Source: Escherichia phage NC28. Taken from it: a stretch of DNA of 6,065 nt. The first letter of the stretch is position 1, and every line of letters begins with the position of its first letter. Positions 1 to 6,065 of the stretch are shown here, piece by piece. The notes beneath the pieces were generated by a model. It saw only the letters and a program-made list of their open reading frames with translations, did not search any database and was not told the DNA's origin. The position numbers were made by a program, and so were the translations under genes. The DNA lies in sequence record NC_007823.1. One strand, written 5' to 3'.

Positions 1-26
1 TTGTTGACTTCTCCCAATCCCTTATG

Positions 27-59
27 AGACTCTTACTTCAACGAATGAAGTAGGAGTCT
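27..59 (+). terminator. Hairpin just downstream of gene H (H stop is at the window end, assuming a circular genome): 13-bp stem (27-39 / 47-59, one G-U pair), 7-nt loop, followed by TCTTTAT. Likely the post-H (TH-like) terminator or mRNA-stabilising hairpin.
   Basis: Read directly: 5' arm AGACTCTTACTTC (27-39), loop AACGAAT (40-46), 3' arm GAAGTAGGAGTCT (47-59). The 3' arm contains AGGAG (52-56), the SD of the ORF starting at 65. The U-tract is weak. Confidence 0.5.
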
Positions 60-64
60 TTATC

Positions 65-433
65 ATGAAGCCCGCTCACCGCTTGACTCATCCGATTCTC
101 GGTTCTTGGTTGTTTAAGTGCCCTGTTTATATCAGTTATGAGCACCTTCATCATGGTCGTCTCATTAAGGTTCGCGCTGTTCGTGATTTATCCCCTCGCC
201 AGCAGCTTATCGCTAACCCTAAAAATTGTTTTGACGTTGTTATTGCTGTGATTGACGTTACTTATTGCTCTGTCACTTATTTTGATTATGAGGCTGAGGA
301 ATATGCCGAGTGTGATTCAGAAACTATGGATAATATCCTTGCTTATGTTAACTCTCCTCACTCCCTTCGCTCTGAGGAGGATTCATCCGTTGATGTTGAC
401 GATATGGCGTGGCTTTATGAAATTGCGGAGTAA
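65..433 (+). CDS. Hypothetical acidic protein (122 aa) in the H-A intergenic region; no recognisable family.
   Basis: ATG at 65 with AGGAG (52-56) 8 nt upstream. T-rich third codon positions match the phage's other genes. C-terminal half is strongly acidic (EEDSSVDVDDMAWLYEIAE tail). Stop TAA at 431-433 lies 3 nt before the next ATG. Confidence 0.5.
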   Translation: MKPAHRLTHPILGSWLFKCPVYISYEHLHHGRLIKVRAVRDLSPRQQLIANPKNCFDVVIAVIDVTYCSVTYFDYEAEEYAECDSETMDNILAYVNSPHSLRSEEDSSVDVDDMAWLYEIAE

Positions 434-436
434 ATC

Positions 437-526
437 ATGGAAACTGTTGTCGGGAAATTTATTGCTTTGGCTGTTGTTGCTCTTATGCTGTATGGAATTG
501 CCCGTTTAATTCGGAGGTTCCCGTGA
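437..526 (+). CDS. Hypothetical small hydrophobic peptide (29 aa, METVVGKFIALAVVALMLYGIARLIRRFP): one predicted transmembrane helix with a basic C-terminus.
   Basis: ATG at 437 with GGAG (427-430) 6 nt upstream. Hand translation gives an uninterrupted hydrophobic stretch then RLIRRFP; stop TGA at 524-526. Too short to appear in the supplied ORF track. Confidence 0.38.
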   Translation: METVVGKFIALAVVALMLYGIARLIRRFP

Positions 527-699
527 AATACTTTAGTCTTGTGGATGAACATTATGCTTATTGCCCTGACACGCGGATTCTGCATATCACTCGCAGTCGT
601 GTTTCTGACCCTCGTTATGAGCGTCGTTTTCTTACTGATGAGGAGCATTTTGAGCTTCTGGATTGGTTGAAAAGCCGTCTGACTTACGTTAATTCTTGA
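523..699 (+). CDS. Hypothetical 58-aa protein with GTG start overlapping the ORF2 stop (GTGA), translation VKYFSLVDEHYAYCPDTRILHITRSRVSDPRYERRFLTDEEHFELLDWLKSRLTYVNS.
   Basis: GGAGG (513-517) lies 5 nt upstream of GTG 523. Open frame to TGA 697-699 verified codon by codon. No in-frame ATG, so the start is uncertain. Confidence 0.33.
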   Translation: MKYFSLVDEHYAYCPDTRILHITRSRVSDPRYERRFLTDEEHFELLDWLKSRLTYVNS

Positions 700-725
700 C
701 AATCTTCTGAAATACCCTCTATATT
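696..725 (+). promoter_or_regulatory. Candidate sigma70 promoter for gene A (PA-like): -35 TTGACA (696-701), -10 TATATT (720-725), 18-nt spacer.
   Basis: Perfect -35 hexamer and a 5/6 -10 read directly, positioned about 35 nt upstream of the A start codon, analogous to phiX174 PA in the H-A intergenic region. The ORF3 stop TGA sits inside the -35 hexamer. Confidence 0.45.
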
Positions 726-755
726 GCCCTCATAGGTTCACTACGAGGGCTTTTT
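726..755 (+). terminator. Terminator-like or leader hairpin: GCCCTC (726-731) / GAGGGC (745-750) stem, 13-nt loop, followed by TTTTT (751-755), immediately before the gene A ATG.
   Basis: Read directly. The 3' arm GAGGG (745-749) is also the likely SD of gene A, 9 nt before ATG 759. Could terminate transcripts coming from the upstream cassette and/or modulate A translation. Confidence 0.4.
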
Positions 756-758
756 CGC

Positions 759-2243
759 ATGGCTACCGAATTGTTTTCTGACGTTGTAAAGGCTACGTGG
801 TCGCATGTCACTGCTAAGCATCCTCATCTTCGTATGGCTGTTCAGGTTGATAACCGTAGCCGTCTTCTTTCTGATTTGGTTTACCAGTTGGAAAAACGCC
901 TTTCCGAAGAGACTCATTTGGATGATGAGACTTATGCCCTTTATGAATCTCAGACTGGCCTTTTGGAAGACCATATGGCACTGGTTCGAAAGTGTGCAGC
1001 CCAACTTGATAATAGTAACACTATAGACCACCGTACCCCGTTGGACCCTGAATGTGTTTTCCTTTTTGAAATGATTTGTCCAGGTGTTCGCTATGGTAAG
1101 GCGCTTAATTCGCTTTGGAGTAAGTATGTCGCTCAATGGCCTGAGAAGTTAATTCGTCAGGAGCTCGACATGGTTAAGCCTTTATCTTTCAAGGATGAGG
1201 TTGCCAAGTACATGGAGAAAATGCAGGAAAAAACACGTAAAAATCGCATGACTCAGAAAGTGATTAATGAGATGCGTATTGCTCACCAAAAAGGCTGGTT
1301 CTTCGTATTTGATACGTTGACACTTGCTGATGACCGTTTGCAGGCGTTTAATGAAAACCCCAATGCTCTTCGTGATTACTTCAGGACTGTTGGTCGAGCT
1401 GTTTTGCGCGCTGAAGGTCGTTCGGTTAAGGATTCCTACAACGACTGCTATCGCTATCTTTGTGTGCCGGAGTTTGGAGGCCAGCACGGCCGTCTTCATT
1501 GGCATGTCGTGCATATGGTGCGGACTCTTCCTTTGGGAAGTCACGACCCTAATTTCGGTCGCAAGGTACGTAATTATCGCCAAATTAACTCGTTCCGTGG
1601 TATGTGGCCTTATGGCTTCACGCAACCGATAGCTGTACGCTATCAACATGATGCTTATTCTCGTAAAGGTTGGTTGTGGCCTGTTGACAAAACAGGAAAA
1701 GCAATGCAGAGTAAGCCGTATCAGGCGGTCGCATGGTATGTGACCAAGTATGTAGCTAAGCAATCTGATCAGCGTCAGAAAGCTATTACCGAGAGACAAA
1801 AAAAATGCAAAAATCCTTTGATGGCAATTTGCTTGAAGAAAGAATTCAGGGTTCGCAGCAGCCGGAAGCTCGGAATGGAGTTACCTTCAATGGTTCACCT
1901 GAGCAACAAGGTCCTTCTGGAACTGAGCAGAATCAGCTTCGATTCCAGCCCGCTCTATCAGATAGTGAAAGAGAACGCCAAAAAGCAATTGAGCTTGAAC
2001 ATCGGCGTAGTGCCTTTGCACGTCATTATGGATGTGCGCCCGCAAGTGAGAAGTATGTTGAAAAATATCCGTCGTTTGATGAAAAAGACACCAGAATTCA
2101 ATTGGCAGAATTCTATCGCTTCAATGACGGTCACCTTAAAAAATGGGGATATTTCTAATGAAGCACGTCAATACATTGTTGATGCAGGAATTACGCCTTT
2201 TGATTTGCGAGCTAAAGCGACTCAAACTTTCGGCGGTAAGTGA
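759..2243 (+). CDS. A: Replication initiation protein A (rolling-circle HUH endonuclease), 494 aa.
   Basis: Long ORF with HUH motif GRLHWHVVH (His codons near 1497-1514) and double-tyrosine motif AWYVTKYVAKQSD (Tyr codons at 1737 and 1749). Central and C-terminal regions align with recalled phiX174 protein A (e.g. GWFxVFDTLTLADDRL, PNALRDYFR, DPNFGRxVRN, WPYG, GWLWPVD). Confidence 0.94.
   Translation: MATELFSDVVKATWSHVTAKHPHLRMAVQVDNRSRLLSDLVYQLEKRLSEETHLDDETYALYESQTGLLEDHMALVRKCAAQLDNSNTIDHRTPLDPECVFLFEMICPGVRYGKALNSLWSKYVAQWPEKLIRQELDMVKPLSFKDEVAKYMEKMQEKTRKNRMTQKVINEMRIAHQKGWFFVFDTLTLADDRLQAFNENPNALRDYFRTVGRAVLRAEGRSVKDSYNDCYRYLCVPEFGGQHGRLHWHVVHMVRTLPLGSHDPNFGRKVRNYRQINSFRGMWPYGFTQPIAVRYQHDAYSRKGWLWPVDKTGKAMQSKPYQAVAWYVTKYVAKQSDQRQKAITERQKKCKNPLMAICLKKEFRVRSSRKLGMELPSMVHLSNKVLLELSRISFDSSPLYQIVKENAKKQLSLNIGVVPLHVIMDVRPQVRSMLKNIRRLMKKTPEFNWQNSIASMTVTLKNGDISNEARQYIVDAGITPFDLRAKATQTFGGK
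1002..1031 (+). other. Viral (+) strand replication origin 30-mer inside gene A; predicted nick between G1008 and A1009.
   Basis: CAACTTGATAATAGTAACACTATAGACCAC matches the recalled phiX174 origin CAACTTGATATTAATAACACTATAGACCAC at 28 of 30 positions; both differences fall in the AT-rich spacer. In frame within A (translated ...QLDNSNTIDHR...). Confidence 0.8.
1212..2243 (+). CDS. A*: Protein A*: in-frame internal restart within gene A, about 343 aa.
   Basis: In-frame ATG at 1212 (MEKMQEKTRKNRMTQ...) preceded by AAGGA/GAGG (1191-1200). It sits at the position equivalent to the phiX174 A* start, about 25 residues before the conserved GWFxVFDTLTLADD. In-frame ATGs at 1221 and 1248 are alternatives. 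Confidence 0.45.
   Translation: MEKMQEKTRKNRMTQKVINEMRIAHQKGWFFVFDTLTLADDRLQAFNENPNALRDYFRTVGRAVLRAEGRSVKDSYNDCYRYLCVPEFGGQHGRLHWHVVHMVRTLPLGSHDPNFGRKVRNYRQINSFRGMWPYGFTQPIAVRYQHDAYSRKGWLWPVDKTGKAMQSKPYQAVAWYVTKYVAKQSDQRQKAITERQKKCKNPLMAICLKKEFRVRSSRKLGMELPSMVHLSNKVLLELSRISFDSSPLYQIVKENAKKQLSLNIGVVPLHVIMDVRPQVRSMLKNIRRLMKKTPEFNWQNSIASMTVTLKNGDISNEARQYIVDAGITPFDLRAKATQTFGGK
1805..2158 (+). CDS. B: Internal scaffolding protein B (117 aa), encoded in an alternative frame inside gene A.
   Basis: ORF in a different frame from A. C-terminus ...DTRIQLAEFYRFNDGHLKKWGYF matches recalled phiX174 B C-terminus (...WRIQPAEFYRFHDAEVNTFGYF). Acidic, Q-rich N-terminal region typical of B. Confidence 0.9.
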   Translation: MQKSFDGNLLEERIQGSQQPEARNGVTFNGSPEQQGPSGTEQNQLRFQPALSDSERERQKAIELEHRRSAFARHYGCAPASEKYVEKYPSFDEKDTRIQLAEFYRFNDGHLKKWGYF

Positions 2244-2319
2244 CCCAGATTTTTCTCAGGAGAAAATTCATGCTGAGCTCGACTCGTTACTACGCAAGTT
2301 ATCGCGCCACTTTGACTAA
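2158..2319 (+). CDS. K: Protein K (53 aa); start overlaps the B stop (TAATG), reads through the end of A and into C.
   Basis: Hand-translated MKHVNTLLMQELRLLICELKRLKLSAVSDPDFSQEKIHAELDSLLRKLSRHFD resembles recalled phiX174 K ([43 protein letters not shown]...). GGGGA lies about 9 nt upstream. Not in the ORF track because it is under 60 aa. Confidence 0.75.
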   Translation: MKHVNTLLMQELRLLICELKRLKLSAVSDPDFSQEKIHAELDSLLRKLSRHFD

Positions 2320-2476
2320 GCAATTGATGTTTCTTACTAAAGCCGACTTTACGAATGATGATGAGAAGTGGCTTAATGCGTTTGGTAATTTGCTTCGCCA
2401 GTGGTTTCAGATTGAGGACTGGAAAGGAAATCATAAGAAATTGTTTGACGATTTAAAAAAACGCGAATACATTTGA
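2270..2476 (+). CDS. C: Protein C (68 aa), involved in ssDNA synthesis and packaging.
   Basis: ATG 2270 preceded by AGGAG (2259-2263), 6-nt spacing. MLSSTRYYASYRATLTKQLMFLTKADFTNDDEKWLNAFGNLLRQWFQIEDW aligns with recalled phiX174 C (…SSYFATFRHQLTILSKTDALDEEKWLNMLGTFVKDWFRYE…). The track's 2240 start is a GTG inside the A stop codon and is less likely. Confidence 0.85.
   Translation: MLSSTRYYASYRATLTKQLMFLTKADFTNDDEKWLNAFGNLLRQWFQIEDWKGNHKKLFDDLKKREYI
2445..2473 (+). promoter_or_regulatory. Candidate PD promoter: -35 TTGACG (2445-2450), 17-nt spacer, -10 TACATT (2468-2473), inside the 3' end of gene C.
   Basis: TTGACGATTTAAAAAAACGCGAATACATTTGAG is nearly colinear with the recalled phiX174 PD region TTGACATTTTAAAAGAGCGTGGATTACTATCTGAG. 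Confidence 0.45.
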
Positions 2477-2518
2477 GTTGTTTCAAAGTTATCTACCCAT
2501 AAGTGTTAGGAGTATGTT

Positions 2519-2977
2519 ATGTCTAATCTTGTTGCTACTGATGTAAATTTCGCTACTTCTGTTGCCGCTCTGAAGATGCTTCAGTCTTCTGCTGTTCTGG
2601 ATATTACTGAGGAGGATTTCGACTTCCTGACTGGTGATAAAATTTGGATTGCTACTGACCGCAACCGTGCGCGTCGTTGTGTAGAGGCTTGTGTTTATGG
2701 AACGCTGGACTTTGTTGGATACCCTCGCTTTCCTGCTCCTGTTGAGTTTATTGCTGCCGTCATTGCTTATTATGTTCATCCCGTCAACATTCAGACGGCC
2801 TGCCTCATCATGGAAGGCGCTGAGTTTACGGAAAACATTGTTAATGGTGTCGAGCGTCCGGTTAAAGCCGCTGAGCTCTTCGCGTACACCCTGCGTGTTA
2901 AAGCCGGACTCAAAGAGACGGTTTTGAATGCTGAAGAGAATGCTCGCCAAAAACTTCGTGCTTCTGGAGTAATGTAA
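2519..2977 (+). CDS. D: External scaffolding protein D (152 aa).
   Basis: AGGAG (2508-2512) 6 nt before ATG 2519. Protein is near-identical over long stretches to recalled phiX174 D (…DFDFLTxxKxWIATDRxRARRCVEACVYGTLDFVGYPRFPAPVEFIAAVIAYYVHPVNIQTACLIMEGAEFTENI…). Confidence 0.96.
   Translation: MSNLVATDVNFATSVAALKMLQSSAVLDITEEDFDFLTGDKIWIATDRNRARRCVEACVYGTLDFVGYPRFPAPVEFIAAVIAYYVHPVNIQTACLIMEGAEFTENIVNGVERPVKAAELFAYTLRVKAGLKETVLNAEENARQKLRASGVM
2697..2927 (+). CDS. E: Lysis protein E (76 aa), embedded in gene D in the +1 frame; N-terminal transmembrane domain.
   Basis: ATG 2697 with GAGG (2684-2687) 9 nt upstream. MERWTLLDTLAFLLLLSLLLPSLLIMFIPSTFRRPASSWKALSLRKTLLM... matches recalled phiX174 E (MVRWTLWDTLAFLLLLSLLLPSLLIMFIPSTFKRPVSSWKALNLRKTLLM...). 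The track's 2691 start is a GTG two codons upstream. Confidence 0.87.
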   Translation: MERWTLLDTLAFLLLLSLLLPSLLIMFIPSTFRRPASSWKALSLRKTLLMVSSVRLKPLSSSRTPCVLKPDSKRRF

Positions 2978-2978
2978 T

Positions 2979-3053
2979 ATGAAAAAGGCTCGTCGCTCTC
3001 CTTCTCGTAAAAAAGGTGCTCGCCTCTGGTATGTAGGCGGTTCTCAGTTTTAA
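2979..3053 (+). CDS. J: Small basic DNA-binding/packaging protein J (24 aa: MKKARRSPSRKKGARLWYVGGSQF).
   Basis: ATG 2979 two nt after the D stop; GGAG (2966-2969) 9 nt upstream. Basic composition and the C-terminal GARLWYVGG motif match recalled phiX174 J (…GARLWYVGGQQF). Short length fits G4/alpha3-type J. Confidence 0.85.
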   Translation: MKKARRSPSRKKGARLWYVGGSQF

Positions 3054-3057
3054 TTAT

Positions 3058-3071
3058 GGGCCTTCGGGCCC
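3058..3071 (+). terminator. J-F intergenic GC hairpin GGGCC-TTCG-GGCCC followed by TTT; terminator-like (TJ) or mRNA-stabilising stem-loop.
   Basis: Perfect 5-bp GC stem with TTCG tetraloop read directly, followed by TTTAAGGA, whose AAGGA (3075-3079) is the SD for F at 3086. Confidence 0.55.
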
Positions 3072-3085
3072 TTTAAGGAAATCCA

Positions 3086-4369
3086 ATGTCAAACGTGCAA
3101 ACTTCCGCAGAACGTATTCCGCATGACCTTTCCCATCTGGTTTTTGATGCTGGCAAGATTGGTCGTTTAAAGGTTGTTTCTTGGACTCCTGTTGTTGCAG
3201 GTGATTCTTTTGAGCTTGATATGATTGGCGCAATTCGCCTTTCTCCGCTTCGTCGTGGTTTGGCTGTTGATAGCCGCGTTGACTTGTTTACTTTCTATGT
3301 TCCTCATCGTCATGTTTATGGTGAGCAATGGATTGATTTTATGAAAGCAGGTGTTGATGCTGCTCCGCTTGCACCTGTTACTTGTTCGCGTGGTTGGGAT
3401 AGCGCCCAGTATTTGGCTACAATTCCGTCCTCTAACCTGAAGGTTCCTAAGTTCCTTCATCAAGGTTATTTGAATATTTATAATAACTATTTTAAAGCTC
3501 CGTGGATGGATGATTTAACTTATGCCAATCCGTCTAATATGGAAGGTGAAGACGTTCGTTTTGGTGTTCGTGCGTGTAACTTGAAAACTATTTGGACTGC
3601 CCCACTTCCGCCGGACACTGAGACTTCTCATTCTATGGAGACTGAGACTAACTCTATTGATATCATGGGCCTTCAGGCCGCTTATGCTCAGCTTCATACT
3701 GAGCAGGAACGTGATTATTTCATGACGCGTTATCGTGATATTGTTAATGAATTTGGTGGTAGTACTTCTTATGATGCGGATAATCGCCCTCTTCTGGTTA
3801 TGCACTCTGAGTTTTGGGCTTCAGGCTATGACGTCGACGGCACCGACCAAAGTTCTCTCGGTCAGTTCTCTGGACGTGTACAGCAGACCTTTAAGCATTC
3901 AGTACCGCGATTCTTCTGCCCTGAGCATGGCACTATGTTCACACTCGCATTGGTCCGCTTCCCGCCGACCCATGAGATGGAGATGCATTACTTAGTTGGC
4001 AAGGAAGATTTAACCTATACTGATTTGGCTTGTGACCCAGCTCTGATGGCCAACCTCCCTCCTCGTGAGGTTAATATGTCTCAGTTCTTCCATTCTGGAA
4101 GTGCTAGTGCTAAGTTTAAGATTGCTGAAGGTCAATGGTATCGTATGCAGCCTGACCGTGTTGCTTTGCCGTATAACTATCTTGATGGTTTTCCGTTCTA
4201 TAGTGCGATTCCATCTGATGATATTAATCATCGTGTTCTGGTTAATACTGATAACTACGATGAGGTTTTCCAGTCTATGCAGCTTGCGCACTGGAATATG
4301 CAGACCAAGTTTAACTGCACCATTTATCGTAATATGCCGACCACTCGCGACTCTATTATGACCTCTTGA
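3086..4369 (+). CDS. F: Major capsid protein F (427 aa).
   Basis: Same length as phiX174 F and extensive identity to the recalled sequence (MSNxQTxAERxPHDLSHL…, FTFYVPHRHVYGEQWI, GYLNIYNNYFKAPWM, WTAPLPP, SIDIMGLQAAYA, SYDADNRPLLVM, ASGYDVDGTDQxSLGQFSGRVQQT, LPTTRDSIMTS). Confidence 0.97.
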   Translation: MSNVQTSAERIPHDLSHLVFDAGKIGRLKVVSWTPVVAGDSFELDMIGAIRLSPLRRGLAVDSRVDLFTFYVPHRHVYGEQWIDFMKAGVDAAPLAPVTCSRGWDSAQYLATIPSSNLKVPKFLHQGYLNIYNNYFKAPWMDDLTYANPSNMEGEDVRFGVRACNLKTIWTAPLPPDTETSHSMETETNSIDIMGLQAAYAQLHTEQERDYFMTRYRDIVNEFGGSTSYDADNRPLLVMHSEFWASGYDVDGTDQSSLGQFSGRVQQTFKHSVPRFFCPEHGTMFTLALVRFPPTHEMEMHYLVGKEDLTYTDLACDPALMANLPPREVNMSQFFHSGSASAKFKIAEGQWYRMQPDRVALPYNYLDGFPFYSAIPSDDINHRVLVNTDNYDEVFQSMQLAHWNMQTKFNCTIYRNMPTTRDSIMTS

Positions 4370-4375
4370 TTATGT

Positions 4376-4389
4376 GGGCCTTCGGGCCC
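4376..4389 (+). terminator. F-G intergenic GC hairpin GGGCC-TTCG-GGCCC, second copy of the J-F hairpin; terminator-like (TF).
   Basis: Identical stem-loop to 3058-3071, with similar flanks (TTATG upstream, C(C)TTTAAGGA downstream); the downstream AAGGA serves as the SD for G. Confidence 0.55.
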
Positions 4390-4406
4390 CTTTAAGGATG
4401 TTGATT

Positions 4407-4952
4407 ATGTTTCAAGTTTATGTATCTAAGCATGTTGCCCCGTTCACTTCTAAGAACCGTGCTTTTTCTATTGCTCCCGCTGCTAATCCGCAGGTTGTTA
4501 ACTCTGGTGAGATTGTTGCAGGTCGTTCTACGTTTCGTATTGCTTCTTCTATTGCTTCCGCTGTTAATGGTAGTGGTTTCGCTTTTGTTCAGATGATGGA
4601 CCCTAACTCTCCTGATTCTCAGCAGGTTTTCTCTGTTGCTGCTTCTCTGTCCTTTAGTGTTGATTCGAATTACATTCCTTGTGTTGTTCGTTTTGAGGAT
4701 AACGCTGCTCAGCCTACTGATTTTGATATTGCGACCGCTGATTTTATTCCGGTTGAGGTTTCTGCTATTTCTCCTCGTGCGCTTAGTGTTCGCGATTGTG
4801 TTACCGTTGATGTTAAGCCTCGCACTCAAGGCAATAATGTTTTTGTTGGTGTTGTTTTCTTTTCTGCTTCTGCTAATGCCGGTAATGTCACTGGTGTCGT
4901 TTCGATGGCTCAGGTTGACCATGAAGTTACAGCTTTGCAGCCGCTTAAATAA
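4407..4952 (+). CDS. G: Major spike protein G (181 aa).
   Basis: ATG 4407 (MFQVYVSKH...) with AAGGA (4394-4398) 8 nt upstream. Start MFQ and motifs CVVRFE, DCVTVDV-PRT-GNNV-VG and C-terminal LQPLK match recalled phiX174 G. The track's 4374 start is a GTG inside the hairpin; the in-frame ATG at 4398 is too close to the SD. Confidence 0.9.
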   Translation: MFQVYVSKHVAPFTSKNRAFSIAPAANPQVVNSGEIVAGRSTFRIASSIASAVNGSGFAFVQMMDPNSPDSQQVFSVAASLSFSVDSNYIPCVVRFEDNAAQPTDFDIATADFIPVEVSAISPRALSVRDCVTVDVKPRTQGNNVFVGVVFFSASANAGNVTGVVSMAQVDHEVTALQPLK

Positions 4953-5087
4953 AAGGCCACCGCACTCCTGGTTAGATGCCTGCCCAGTGTAGGGTGGACC
5001 GAGCCGTACGGAGATACCCGAGAAACTAGGAACGCGGAAGGCGTTAGCCGCCTTCCCTCCTGCTAAGCCCAAAGGAGACTTTCAGCT
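4953..5087 (+). promoter_or_regulatory. 135-nt structured G-H intergenic region; candidate terminator after G and/or complementary (-) strand origin (primase-dependent ssi). Strong hairpin at 5036-5056 (GGAAGGCG-TTAGC-CGCCTTCC); possible imperfect hairpin 4957-4997; palindrome CCGTACGG at 5004-5011.
   Basis: Hairpins read directly. The spacer is far longer than a terminator plus RBS needs, while the F-G spacer is only 37 nt. My recollection is that in G4 the (-) strand origin is in F-G and in alpha3/St-1/phiK it is in G-H. AAGGAG (5072-5077) is the SD for H. Confidence 0.35.
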
Positions 5088-6065
5088 ATGTTAGGTGCCG
5101 TTGTAGGTGGTATTGTTTCAGCCTTAGCTGGTGGAGCAGCTTCTAAGCTATTTGGTGGCAAGCCTGCCGCTCAAGCCGCCACTGAGTCCTCTGGCCTTTC
5201 TAATGGTCAAGGTGTTATTGGTATGGACCAAGATGCTGGTATTCAGTCAGCTATTCAGGGTTCGAATGTTCCAAATGGTCAGATTCCTGCCCCTACCCAG
5301 ACTGGTGGCGTTATGTCTGACGCTAAAAATATGATTAAGAATGCTGGTAAAGATTTGCTTGATGGTGTTATGACCGCTGGAAGTGACCGCATTAAGCAGG
5401 CATTGGTTGATAAATTGAGTGGTAATAATGCAAAACGACAAGGACAAGCAACCCGTGATTACTTGGCTTCGGCCTTCCCTGAGCTCAACCCGTGGGAACG
5501 TTCTGGAGCTGGTGCTTCCGGTGCCGGATTGGAATCTTCCGGTCAGGACCAACAAAAAGAGTTGATGCGTATGCAGCTGGATAACCAGAAAGATATTGCA
5601 AAGATGCAGATGGATAACAATTTGCAGATTGCTGGTATTCAGTCCGCTACATCTCGTCAGAATACTAAGGACACTGTTTATGCTCAGAATGAAATGCTTC
5701 AGTACAATCAGCGTGAGTCGCAGGCACGCGTTGAATCTATCCTCGCCAACACTAACCTTACGGATAAGCAGGCTACCCATGAAATCATGAGAATGGCTCT
5801 TACCCGTGCTCAGGAAACTGGTCAGCATTTGACTAACTCTCAGATTATGGCATTGGAGAAAAAGGTTTATGCAGAAATCGGAAAAATTAATCAAGATACT
5901 CAAAACGCTCGCTATGGTAGTTCTCAGGTTACTGCTGCGGCGAAAGATGTTACGAATATGATTACTGATGCCACCTCTGGTGCTGCTGATTGGGTTTCCC
6001 AGCAATGGAATTCCCTCTTTAAGGATGGTAAGTCTAATGGTATTCCCCTCAATACCAGAAAATAA
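5088..6065 (+). CDS. H: Minor spike / DNA pilot protein H (325 aa).
   Basis: AAGGAG (5072-5077) 10 nt before ATG 5088. Glycine-rich N-terminus (MLGAVVGGIVSALAGGAASKLFGG), then GIQSAIQGSNVPN, TRDYLAxAFPELNxWER, QKELxxMQLDNQK, IAGIQSATSRQNTKDxVYAQNEML, ENTNL, QNxRYGSS; C-terminal ...FKDGKSNGI...RK. All match recalled phiX174 H. Stop TAA is the last 3 nt of the window. Confidence 0.95.
   Translation: MLGAVVGGIVSALAGGAASKLFGGKPAAQAATESSGLSNGQGVIGMDQDAGIQSAIQGSNVPNGQIPAPTQTGGVMSDAKNMIKNAGKDLLDGVMTAGSDRIKQALVDKLSGNNAKRQGQATRDYLASAFPELNPWERSGAGASGAGLESSGQDQQKELMRMQLDNQKDIAKMQMDNNLQIAGIQSATSRQNTKDTVYAQNEMLQYNQRESQARVESILANTNLTDKQATHEIMRMALTRAQETGQHLTNSQIMALEKKVYAEIGKINQDTQNARYGSSQVTAAAKDVTNMITDATSGAADWVSQQWNSLFKDGKSNGIPLNTRK

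What the first reader, a model, noticed from the sequence alone, without database searches (positions are those of the whole stretch)
1..6065. Window is probably a whole circular alpha3-like genome opened at the H stop
The window ends exactly on the H stop codon and begins with what looks like the post-H hairpin. All canonical microvirus genes occur once in order, and the 6065-nt length matches what I recall for alpha3-like phages (about 6.0-6.1 kb, against 5386 for phiX174). If so, positions 6065 and 1 are contiguous in vivo and the H-A region described above is the genome's only large non-canonical segment.
Basis: inference. Interest (0 to 1): 0.4.

Follow-up and report, generated by a model that had tools for sequence, protein, structure and literature searches.

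The report
Complete alpha3-group microvirus genome
The 6065-base window is one complete copy of a small circular single-stranded-DNA coliphage of the alpha3/WA13 group, written out from just after gene H as is customary for these phages; this is an ordinary result, although the phage is a lineage that no deposited genome matches closely.

Summary
The window aligns end to end with 13 complete Alphatrevirus genomes (WA13 91.7%, alpha3 about 79-83%). It carries A/A*, B, K, C, D, E, J, F, G and H once each, intact and in the canonical order. It ends on the H stop codon and starts 25 nt before a strong, conserved post-H hairpin. Joining 6065 to 1 gives a sequence that aligns without gaps to ten independent sequences that read through that point. 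One of these, L018, is a 95%-identical metagenomic contig that closes on itself as a 6051-nt circle. It differs from the window only by substitutions and one 14-nt indel in the C-D spacer. No copy occurs in 5,426 complete E. coli genomes.

Two refinements apply. The 758-nt H-A region is a conserved three-gene module (122, 29 and 58 aa; dN/dS 0.07-0.23), not empty spacer. The literature already counts these among the extra ORFs of this group, and their function is unknown. The 135-nt G-H spacer is a second non-phiX feature: the G4-type primase-dependent complementary-strand origin.

The genome is a mosaic new lineage, below 95% identity to every named phage. Interest is low.

The parts
1..6065 (+). 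One complete unit of a circular Alphatrevirus (alpha3/WA13 group) genome, opened after the H stop
   Evidence: Colinear over the full length with 13 complete genomes. 95.0% identical, with a single 14-nt indel, to the closed-circle contig L018.
26..61 (+). Post-H hairpin followed by UUUAU, probably the weak terminator after H. Its 3' arm contains the AGGAG ribosome-binding site of orfHA1.
   Evidence: -22.1 kcal/mol, z = -4.2. The stem is conserved in 17 sequences with only one-sided changes. The simple terminator scan did not call it.
65..433 (+). orfHA1: 122-aa protein of unknown function, with a basic conserved N-terminal half and an acidic C-terminal half
437..526 (+). orfHA2: 29-aa hydrophobic peptide, a single predicted membrane span followed by a basic tail
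   Evidence: Conserved ORF in 13 of 14 genomes. dN/dS 0.23. Kyte-Doolittle 2.27 over 19 aa. GGAG 8 nt upstream.
523..699 (+). orfHA3: 58-aa protein with a GTG start that overlaps the orfHA2 stop by 4 nt
696..725 (+). Promoter-like site upstream of gene A (P_A candidate)
   Evidence: TTGACA-18-TATATT, 11 of 12 matches, the best match in the window.
726..750 (+). GC-rich hairpin plus a T run in the leader of gene A
   Evidence: -14.7 kcal/mol, z = -4.2.
759..2243 (+). Gene A: rolling-circle replication initiator (494 aa), with HUH motif HWHVV (aa 247-251) and tyrosine pair YVTKY (aa 327-331)
   Evidence: Pfam Phage_GPA 202.6 bits. Motifs located. 95-97% aa identity to relatives.
1002..1031 (+). 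Viral-strand origin, the 30-mer CAACTTGATAATAGTAACACTATAGACCAC inside gene A
   Evidence: Invariant in all 14 aligned genomes. Position. The function is inferred from phiX174-type origins.
1272..2243 (+). A*: in-frame internal start of gene A (323 aa)
   Evidence: ATG in frame at the position annotated in St-1.
1805..2158 (+). Gene B: internal scaffolding protein (117 aa), overlapping A in another frame
   Evidence: Pfam Phage_B 169.4 bits. Only 78-81% identical to named relatives but 93% to L018.
2143..2319 (+). Gene K (58 aa, or 53 aa if it starts at 2158)
   Evidence: phrog_8511, E = 1.5e-39. Annotated from either start in relatives.
2270..2476 (+). Gene C (68 aa)
   Evidence: Pfam Phage_C 37.8 bits.
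2445..2473 (+). Promoter-like site ahead of gene D (P_D candidate, weak)
   Evidence: TTGACG-17-TACATT, 9 of 12 matches. This is a consensus match only.
2519..2977 (+). Gene D: external scaffolding protein (152 aa)
   Evidence: Pfam gpD 261 bits. 100% aa identity to ID62 and L018.
2697..2927 (+). Gene E: lysis protein (76 aa), nested inside D
   Evidence: Pfam Microvir_lysis 71.8 bits.
2979..3053 (+). Gene J: DNA-binding core protein (24 aa)
   Evidence: Pfam Microvir_J 52.5 bits.
3058..3071 (+). GGGCC-TTCG-GGCCC hairpin after J
   Evidence: Repeat family D2. Fold -11.5 kcal/mol, not better than shuffles.
3086..4369 (+). Gene F: major capsid protein (427 aa)
   Evidence: Pfam Phage_F 530.8 bits. 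96-99% aa identity to the WA13 clade and 66% to the alpha3 clade.
4376..4389 (+). GGGCC-TTCG-GGCCC hairpin after F, a copy of the one after J
4407..4952 (+). Gene G: major spike protein (181 aa; an alternative ATG lies at 4398)
   Evidence: Pfam Phage_G 95.3 bits. It is the most divergent gene, with dN/dS 0.55 and 85% aa identity to L018.
4953..5087 (+). G-H spacer: G4-type primase-dependent complementary-strand origin. Hairpin I is 5036-5056, contains GCGTTAGC (5041-5048) and is followed by CTG.
   Evidence: Homologous along its whole length to G4's F-G spacer. GCGTTAGC is the St-1/alpha3 Hairpin I motif according to PMC13037366. Hairpin -14.2 kcal/mol, z = -2.3. Spacer length is fixed at 134-136 nt across the group.
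5088..6065 (+). Gene H: minor spike / DNA pilot protein (325 aa). Its stop codon is the last triplet of the window.
   Evidence: Pfam Microvir_H 308.7 bits. 92-97% aa identity to the WA13 clade.

Best explanation
The window is one complete, unit-length copy of the circular single-stranded DNA genome of a bullavirine microvirus of the genus Alphatrevirus (WA13 sub-clade). It is written out from the base after the H stop codon, which is the numbering convention of alpha3 and its relatives.

Shown here: the full gene set on one strand; the invariant 30-nt viral-strand origin inside gene A; the HUH and double-tyrosine motifs of protein A; a G-H spacer homologous to the G4 primase origin; a strong promoter match ahead of A; hairpins after H, J and F; and three extra conserved genes between H and A.

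Inferred from established microvirus biology (phiX174, G4, alpha3):
- Host primase primes complementary-strand synthesis at the G-H hairpins.
- Protein A nicks the origin in gene A and drives rolling-circle replication.
- All genes are transcribed rightward from promoters ahead of A, B and D, with leaky termination at the hairpins.
- B and D scaffold F/G/H procapsids, C and J package the circle, and E lyses the cell.
- Bases 6065 and 1 are neighbours in the virion DNA.

The genome is a natural mosaic. Its backbone is closest to an unnamed metagenomic circle (95%), with patches closer to WA45, ID32, ID62 or phiK.
For: Full-length colinear matches to WA13 (91.7%) and 22 other records, and global identities of 78-92%.

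All genes are intact and have the same lengths as in WA13, and they pass Pfam's curated cut-offs.

The joined ends align without gaps to ten sequences that cross the junction. The nearest relative, L018, is a self-overlapping circular contig of 6051 nt, 95.0% identical with a single 14-nt indel far from the junction. L020 and L021 are also closed circles.

There are no long internal repeats and no overlap between the window's ends.

The sequence is absent from complete E. coli genomes, from plasmids except phiX174 contaminants, and the junction motif is absent from species-representative genomes.

The ori(+) 30-mer is invariant. The A motifs are present. The G-H spacer is homologous to the G4 origin and carries the alpha3/St-1 GCGTTAGC motif.

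Substitutions are overwhelmingly synonymous: dN/dS is 0.07-0.19 in A, D, F, H and the larger H-A ORFs. This is what is expected of a functioning natural genome.
Against: Circular closure of this particular sequence was not observed. No reads or source record are available, and neither its F nor its H protein exists as an exact sequence in the large protein collection.

The single-stranded nature, the origins, the promoters and the terminators are inferred from homology and were not tested.

The post-H hairpin was not called by the simple terminator scan and shows no double compensatory changes.

The patchwork of best relatives could in principle be an assembly chimera of co-occurring phages and not natural recombination.
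Confidence: 0.95

Rival explanations
1. The window is a piece of a larger replicon: an integrated microvirus (prophage) or part of a plasmid or chromosome, trimmed so that it looks unit-length.
For: One metagenomic contig (L019) joins alpha3-like A/B/K/C/D sequence to kdpA-kdpB. Integrated microviruses are known in other subfamilies (title of PMC3091885).
Against: There is no match in 5,426 complete E. coli genomes, and plasmid hits are only phiX174 contaminants. The junction motif is absent from 185,579 species genomes.

L019 is a chimera. Its kdp genes belong to gut Clostridia (at most 84% KdpB identity), the join truncates kdpA, and none of 80 kdp loci holds phage sequence.

The window's two ends fit each other exactly as in closed circles.
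Confidence: 0.01
2. The window is unit-length only approximately: the assembly was closed or trimmed wrongly, so that a few bases are missing or duplicated at the 6065/1 join.
For: The source reads are unavailable. Circular assemblies commonly carry k-mer overlaps, as L018, L020 and L021 do.
Against: The joined ends align column for column (300/300, no gaps) with MG945254, and with a single 1-nt gap inside the hairpin loop with alpha3 and Lilleven. Global alignment to the L018 circle has no indel anywhere except 2487-2500. The window's first and last 20 nt share nothing. H has the same length as in its relatives, and the H-A region is exactly 758 nt, as in WA13 and alpha3.
Confidence: 0.02
3. 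The sequence is an in-silico chimera, or an otherwise artificial composite of several co-occurring Alphatrevirus genomes, and not one natural genome.
For: The best relative changes along the genome: L018 at 96-99% over most of it, but phiK-like at 601-1100, WA45-like at 2201-2700, and WA45/ID32/ID62-like at 4201-5100. No exact protein matches exist in public collections.
Against: In the patches the window is only 89-94% identical to the best relative, so they are not copied from any known genome. Every ORF and overlap is intact. Such mosaicism is the reported norm for these phages (title of Rokyta 2006, cited in PMC2935103). The unusual B segment is shared with the independent contig L018.
Confidence: 0.04

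Closest known systems
Enterobacteria phage WA13 (NC_007821 / DQ079873) and WA45: the nearest named genomes
   Same: Same gene order, gene lengths and opening point. The H-A region is 758 nt and the G-H spacer is 135 nt in both. Nucleotide identity is 91.7% over the full length. F is 99%, D 98% and J 100% identical at the protein level.
   Different: About 8% nucleotide divergence. B is only 79% identical. The window is an outgroup to all named genomes in the A/B overlap. There are 1-2-nt indels in the C-D and J-F spacers.
Logan contig SRR12711546_9384 (L018): unnamed metagenomic circle of 6051 nt
   Same: 95.0% identical. It shares the window's distinctive B segment (B 93%) and the same three H-A genes (93-97%). 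It is demonstrably circular through a 30-nt terminal overlap.
   Different: It has a 14-nt shorter C-D spacer. G is only 85% identical. Three patches are 86-89% identical.
Escherichia phage alpha3 (NC_001330, DQ085810), St-1 and phiK: type members of the genus
   Same: Same architecture, including the three H-A ORFs, an identical ori(+) 30-mer, and a primase origin in the G-H spacer with GCGTTAGC.
   Different: About 79% global identity. F is 66% and H 78-81% identical. G lies in the least conserved stretch, about 52-62% nt identity. The C-D spacer is 26 nt.
phiX174 and G4: the textbook microviruses
   Same: Same eleven genes in the same order on one strand, and the same replication and assembly logic. 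The G4 record is also opened at the H stop. G4's complementary-strand origin is homologous to the window's.
   Different: Their genomes are 5.4-5.5 kb, with a short H-A spacer (58 nt in G4) and no orfHA1-3. In G4 the origin lies between F and G, not between G and H. Only the D-to-F stretch (about 30% of the window) is alignable at the nucleotide level, at about 74-76% to G4-type phages; phiX174 matches only a 319-nt piece of D at 88.7%.

Membership tests
Microviridae, subfamily Bullavirinae | Gene set A/A*, B, K, C, D, E, J, F, G, H on one strand in this order, with B, K and E overlapping other genes | tested here: met
   All are found once and intact. Pfam families are above curated cut-offs for nine of them, and K matches phrog_8511.
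Microviridae, subfamily Bullavirinae | HUH rolling-circle initiator with two catalytic tyrosines, and a conserved 30-nt origin inside gene A | tested here: met
   HWHVV at aa 247-251 and YVTKY at aa 327-331. The 30-mer at 1002-1031 is invariant in 14 genomes. Nicking activity was not tested.
Microviridae, subfamily Bullavirinae | Circular, single-stranded DNA genome | not testable with these tools
   Circularity is supported indirectly. The ends fit as in three self-overlapping circular contigs of relatives and seven other sequences that cross the junction. Strandedness cannot be read from the sequence.
Genus Alphatrevirus (alpha3 / WA13 group) | Genome of about 6.0-6.3 kb that aligns over its full length with alpha3, St-1, phiK and the WA13-like phages | tested here: met
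   6065 nt, with 100% coverage at 89-92% identity to the WA13 clade and 84-88% coverage at 83-85% identity to the alpha3 clade.
Genus Alphatrevirus (alpha3 / WA13 group) | Long H-A region (about 730-760 nt) carrying conserved extra reading frames | tested here: met
   758 nt. orfHA1-3 are conserved, with dN/dS 0.07-0.23. PMC2935103 states that alpha3- and WA13-like phages have additional conserved ORFs of unknown function.
Genus Alphatrevirus (alpha3 / WA13 group) | Primase-dependent complementary-strand origin in the G-H spacer, with Hairpin I carrying GCGTTAGC | tested here: met
   The sequence is homologous to the G4 origin. The motif lies at 5041. The motif is assigned to St-1 and alpha3 in PMC13037366. 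Priming itself was not tested.
Any named Alphatrevirus species (95% nucleotide identity rule; the threshold is quoted from general knowledge of ICTV practice) | At least 95% genome-wide nucleotide identity to a named species exemplar | tested here: not met
   The best named match is WA13 at 91.7%, or 91.6% in the global alignment. Only the unnamed contig L018 reaches 95.0%.

The most novel reading that the evidence does not exclude
The genome itself is ordinary. The least understood part is the H-A module, a three-gene cassette found only in alpha3-group microviruses. It comprises orfHA1 (122 aa, a confidently predicted mostly-beta fold with no neighbour in the PDB and a strongly acidic C-terminal half), orfHA2 (a 29-aa membrane peptide) and orfHA3 (58 aa, very conserved).

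orfHA1 is a fast-changing slot: it is only 36% identical in one lineage whose flanking genes are 78-86% identical. That pattern would fit an accessory host-interaction function such as counter-defence, host takeover or superinfection exclusion, built on a fold not yet described. Nothing found here excludes that reading, and nothing demonstrates it.
Probability: 0.25. Interest if true: 0.45.

Novelty: new member of a known kind. Interest (0 to 1): 0.12.

Why it matters
Knowing that the window is a whole circular genome fixes how everything else in it should be read. Positions 6065 and 1 are neighbours. The H-A region is a normal, conserved part of alpha3-group phages, not an insertion or an assembly artefact. 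No gene is missing.

The sequence adds one more lineage, at or below the usual species threshold, to a small and well-studied genus. It also shows the recombinational mosaicism already described for these phages.

The only open biology lies in the three H-A genes. They are clearly under selection and restricted to this group, and their function remains unknown.

Tried and rejected
- **Exact junction search.** A 30-mer spanning 6065->1 gave no match in IMG/VR. A degenerate 23-mer gave nothing in IMG/VR or in the species genomes. It gave three metagenome contigs, of which only L016 is a real relative. L015 and L017 share only the motif.
- **Source contig.** Exact look-ups of the F and H proteins found nothing on record.
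- **Rfam.** No family matched at E <= 1.
- **Rokyta et al. 2006.** The paper could not be read by DOI or by PMC id, so its content is cited only through PMC2935103.
- **Prophage or larger replicon.** Rejected. The one phage-bacterium contig, L019, is a chimera with Clostridia kdp genes.
- **Family assignment of orfHA1-3.** Pfam, PHROGs and NCBIfam gave nothing. A PDB sequence profile search for orfHA1 also gave nothing.
- **Alternative-frame ORF 138-509.** It is annotated in MG945254 but rejected as a gene: it is broken by stops in 11 of 14 genomes, including the window, and has dN/dS 1.03.
- **My own error.** My first G coordinates (4397) were in the wrong frame. They were corrected to 4407 or 4398.
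Full report
**Observation**

The window is 6065 nt. Its last ORF runs from 5088 to 6065 (325 aa), so the TAA at 6063-6065 is the final triplet of the window. The product is a microvirus H pilot protein (Pfam Microvir_H, 308.7 bits).

The first 75 nt fold into a long hairpin. The stem spans 26-61, the free energy is -22.1 kcal/mol, z = -4.2, and none of 200 shuffles folds as well. It is followed by UUUAU. The hairpin therefore starts 25 nt into the window, not at base 1. Its stem is nearly invariant in 17 related sequences, with only one-sided changes at one pair. Conservation and energy support it, but covariation does not. The simple terminator scan did not list it.

**Gene content**

Reading the window against the annotation of WA13, alpha3 and St-1 gives these genes:

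| Gene | Coordinates |
|---|---|
| A | 759-2243 |
| A* | 1272-2243 |
| B | 1805-2158 |
| K | 2143 or 2158-2319 |
| C | 2270-2476 |
| D | 2519-2977 |
| E | 2697-2927 |
| J | 2979-3053 |
| F | 3086-4369 |
| G | 4407-4952 (alternative ATG at 4398) |
| H | 5088-6065 |

- All genes are on the + strand, have no internal stops, and have the same lengths as in WA13.
- Nine products exceed Pfam's curated thresholds, and K matches phrog_8511.
- No direct repeat longer than 30 nt exists, so nothing is duplicated.
- Protein A carries the HUH motif (HWHVV, aa 247-251) and the tyrosine pair (YVTKY, aa 327-331).
- The 30-nt viral-strand origin, CAACTTGATAATAGTAACACTATAGACCAC at 1002-1031, is invariant in all 14 aligned genomes.

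**Identity**

- Megablast against 50,697 phage records gives full-length, single-piece, colinear matches: WA13 and WA45 (91.7% and 91.6%), a dog-faeces Microviridae genome MG945254 (91.1%), and ID62, ID32, NC3, ID21, NC35 and NC29 (89-90%).
- Matches to alpha3, phiK and St-1 cover 84-88% of the window at 83-85% identity.
- Global alignment gives 91.6% to WA13 and about 79% to the alpha3 clade.
- The relatives are 6039-6259 nt long, so 6065 nt fits.
- alpha3, phiK, St-1 and the ten WA/ID/NC genomes compared here start at the same base, TTGTTGAC immediately after the H stop. A G4 record is also opened at the H stop. The window's start is therefore the numbering convention of this field.

**Is 6065->1 really contiguous?**

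The source reads are not available, so I used every sequence that reads through that point.

- The joined ends (last 150 nt plus first 150 nt) align to MG945254, which is opened inside D, over 300/300 columns with no gap at 92.7%.
- They also align to Lilleven (opened at A) and to the 1989-era alpha3 fragment M25640, with a single 1-nt gap in the hairpin loop.
- A scan of the metagenome collection for the conserved junction motif found contig SKEJ01013411 (L016). It runs from window 5619 through the junction to 1744 in one alignment.
- Exact-protein look-ups of homologues returned five more contigs that cross the junction.
- Three of those are self-overlapping, which is the signature of a circle: L018 (6081 nt, 30-nt exact terminal overlap, unit 6051 nt), L020 (141-nt overlap, unit 6077) and L021 (30-nt overlap, unit 6077).
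- L018 is the closest relative of the window, at 95.0%. A global alignment of the rotated circle against the window contains only substitutions and one 14-nt indel at 2487-2500 in the C-D spacer.
- In the junction-crossing sequences whose bases were read at this point, TAA is followed directly by TTGTTGAC.

Nothing is missing or extra at the join.

**Larger replicon?**

- There is no megablast hit in 5,426 complete E. coli genomes.
- The six plasmid hits are 5386-bp phiX174 control contaminants that match only part of gene D.
- The junction motif is absent from one genome of each of 185,579 species.
- The single exception, ENA contig L019, joins alpha3-like A/B/K/C/D sequence to kdpA-kdpB. The kdp part does not match E. 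coli and is closest to gut Clostridia MAGs (KdpB at most 84% identical). Those genomes continue kdpA 390-700 nt upstream of the join, and none of the 80 kdp loci holds phage sequence. L019 is a chimera, not an integration.

**What the non-canonical segments are**

*The H-A region.* The 758-nt H-A region is not empty. It contains three ORFs in series:

| ORF | Coordinates | Product | Ribosome-binding site | dN/dS |
|---|---|---|---|---|
| orfHA1 | 65-433 | 122 aa | AGGAG 9 nt upstream, inside the 3' arm of the post-H hairpin | 0.19 |
| orfHA2 | 437-526 | 29 aa, one hydrophobic span | GGAG 8 nt upstream | 0.23 |
| orfHA3 | 523-699 | 58 aa, GTG start overlapping the orfHA2 stop by 4 nt | GGAGG 6 nt upstream | 0.07 |

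(Ribosome-binding sites, hydrophobic span, dN/dS.)

- The ORFs keep frame, start and stop in 12-14 of 14 genomes.
- The apparent orfHA1 frameshift in the 1992 alpha3 record disappears in the resequenced record DQ085810.2.
- For comparison, dN/dS is 0.07-0.15 for A, D, F and H, and 1.0-2.0 for the alternative frames over the same DNA.
- A further overlapping ORF that MG945254 annotates (window 138-509) is broken by stops in 11 of 14 genomes, including the window, and has dN/dS 1.03, so it is not a gene.
[quoted passage not shown] 2006). I could not read the original paper.
- Lilleven's record annotates the same three ORFs as hypothetical proteins.
- Downstream of orfHA3 lie the best promoter match of the window (TTGACA-18-TATATT, 696-725) and a GC-rich leader hairpin with a T run (726-750, -14.7 kcal/mol, z = -4.2), directly before the A start.

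*The G-H spacer.* The 135-nt G-H spacer is a second feature without a phiX174 counterpart at that place.

- It aligns along its whole length with G4's F-G spacer.
- It contains the hairpin GGAAGGCGTTAGCCGCCTTCC followed by CTG.
- A review that cites Sims et al. 1979 states that St-1 and alpha3 have GCGTTAGC in Hairpin I of the primase origin where G4 has GCGAAAGC (PMC13037366).
- Its length is fixed at 134-136 nt across the group.

I take it to be the primase-dependent complementary-strand origin. That rests on sequence homology, not on a functional test.

**How it works**

*Shown:* the gene set, the motifs, the origin sequences, the promoter and hairpin matches, and the fit of the two ends.

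*Inferred from the established biology of phiX174, G4 and alpha3:*
- The injected + strand is primed by host primase at the G-H hairpins and converted to duplex.
- Protein A nicks the 30-mer in its own gene and drives rolling-circle synthesis.
- Transcription runs rightward from promoters ahead of A, B and D, through leaky hairpin terminators after J, F and H.
- B and D scaffold F, G and H into procapsids, C and J load the circle, and E blocks MraY to lyse the cell.

**Function of the H-A genes**

I could not assign one.

- Pfam, PHROGs and NCBIfam give nothing for any of the three, and a PDB sequence profile search for orfHA1 gives nothing.
- Homologues of orfHA1 and orfHA3 among 5.8 billion proteins lie only on contigs of at most 6.3 kb.
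- An exhaustive profile search of 1.84 billion representatives finds only the orfHA1 family itself plus one divergent member, P0033 (E = 7e-16).
- P0033 sits on contig L105 in the same H - orfHA1 - orfHA2 - orfHA3 - A layout. There H, orfHA2, orfHA3 and A are 78-86% identical to the window, but orfHA1 is only 36% identical. orfHA1 is therefore a fast-evolving slot.
- The N-terminal half of orfHA1 is basic (pI 9.8) and nearly invariant. The C-terminal half is very acidic (charge -15) and ends in the conserved tip VDDMxWLYEIAE.

**Mosaicism**

- Over most of its length the window is 96-99% identical to L018.
- In three patches another relative is closer, and identity drops to 89-94%: 601-1100 (phiK), 2201-2700 (WA45/WA13) and 4201-5100, covering gene G (WA45, ID32, ID62).
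- In the A/B overlap the named WA13-clade genomes are 97-100% identical to one another, but the window is only about 91% identical to all of them. Its B protein is 78-81% identical to named relatives. L018 shares this variant, with B at 93%, so it is a real lineage.
- This fits the horizontal transfer reported for these phages.

**Verdict**

The window is a complete Alphatrevirus genome opened at the conventional point. It is a new member of a known kind: it lies below 95% identity to every named phage (91.7% to WA13) and at 95.0% to one unnamed metagenomic circle. Interest is low. The only part with open biology is the H-A gene module, whose existence is already in the literature.

Noticed in passing
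window 65-699: The so-called H-A intergenic region is a three-gene cassette (122, 29 and 58 aa) under purifying selection (dN/dS 0.19, 0.23, 0.07). Each ORF has its own Shine-Dalgarno motif, and orfHA2 and orfHA3 are translationally coupled through a 4-nt overlap. The cassette is restricted to alpha3-group microviruses and has no family or fold assignment. The orfHA1 model is confident but has no PDB neighbour.
   Followed up: yes
L105 820-1209 (Logan SRR20337160_149276): In a more divergent lineage H, orfHA2, orfHA3 and A are 78-86% identical to the window, but the orfHA1 homologue (P0033, 129 aa) is only 36% identical. The orfHA1 slot evolves much faster than its neighbours, or has been replaced.
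   Followed up: partly
window 1805-2158 (A/B overlap): The window is an outgroup to all 13 named genomes in this segment. It is about 91% identical to each of them, while the WA13 clade is 97-100% identical internally. B is only 78-81% identical to named relatives. The variant is shared with metagenomic circle L018 (B 93%) and ENA contig L019 (B 90%).
   Followed up: yes
window 601-1100, 2201-2700, 4201-5100: These are mosaic patches. Elsewhere L018 is the best relative at 96-99%. In these three stretches phiK, WA45/WA13 or ID32/ID62 are closer, and identity falls to 89-94%. This suggests recombination with unsampled lineages. Gene G is the most divergent gene (dN/dS 0.55).
   Followed up: partly
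window 2477-2518 (C-D spacer): This spacer is the indel hot spot of the group. It is 26 nt in alpha3, St-1, phiK, Lilleven, ID62 and MG945254, 42-43 nt in the window and WA13, 73 nt with a tandem repeat in NC3, and 233 nt in NC29. The only indel between the window and L018 lies here.
   Followed up: partly
window 4953-5087: The G-H spacer is homologous to G4's F-G complementary-strand origin. The same origin module therefore sits in a different intergenic slot in the two phage groups.
   Followed up: yes
window 3045-3074 and 4363-4392: Nearly identical GGGCC-TTCG-GGCCC hairpins, each followed by TTTAAGGA and an ATG, stand after J and after F. A related copy lies inside F at 3654-3683. As isolated 35-37-nt segments the hairpins after J and F fold no better than shuffles.
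   Followed up: partly
L019 1-4728 (ENA ERZ916621, human gut metagenome): This contig fuses alpha3-like A/B/K/C/D sequence (91% to window 1673-2716) to kdpA-kdpB of a gut Clostridia bacterium, giving a spurious D-KdpA fusion ORF. It is judged to be an assembly or library chimera.
   Followed up: yes
NC_001330 / X60322 (alpha3) and NC_012868 (St-1), positions about 66-434: The reference records of alpha3 and St-1 carry a 1-nt deletion that breaks orfHA1. The resequenced alpha3 record DQ085810.2 has the ORF intact, so at least the alpha3 frameshift is a sequencing error in the old record.
   Followed up: partly
L015 833-855 and L017 959-981 (metagenome contigs): Two unrelated metagenome contigs contain the exact 23-nt junction motif AATACYAGAAAATAATTGTTGAC but no other similarity to the window. 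L017 has a weak 29-nt extension. This is probably chance in a very large collection, but it was not explained.
   Followed up: no
window 138-509 (frame 3): An ORF annotated as 'similar to hypothetical protein' in MG945254 is interrupted by a stop at 249-251 in the window and by stops in most relatives. Its dN/dS is 1.03. It is an annotation artefact of a T-rich alternative frame.
   Followed up: yes
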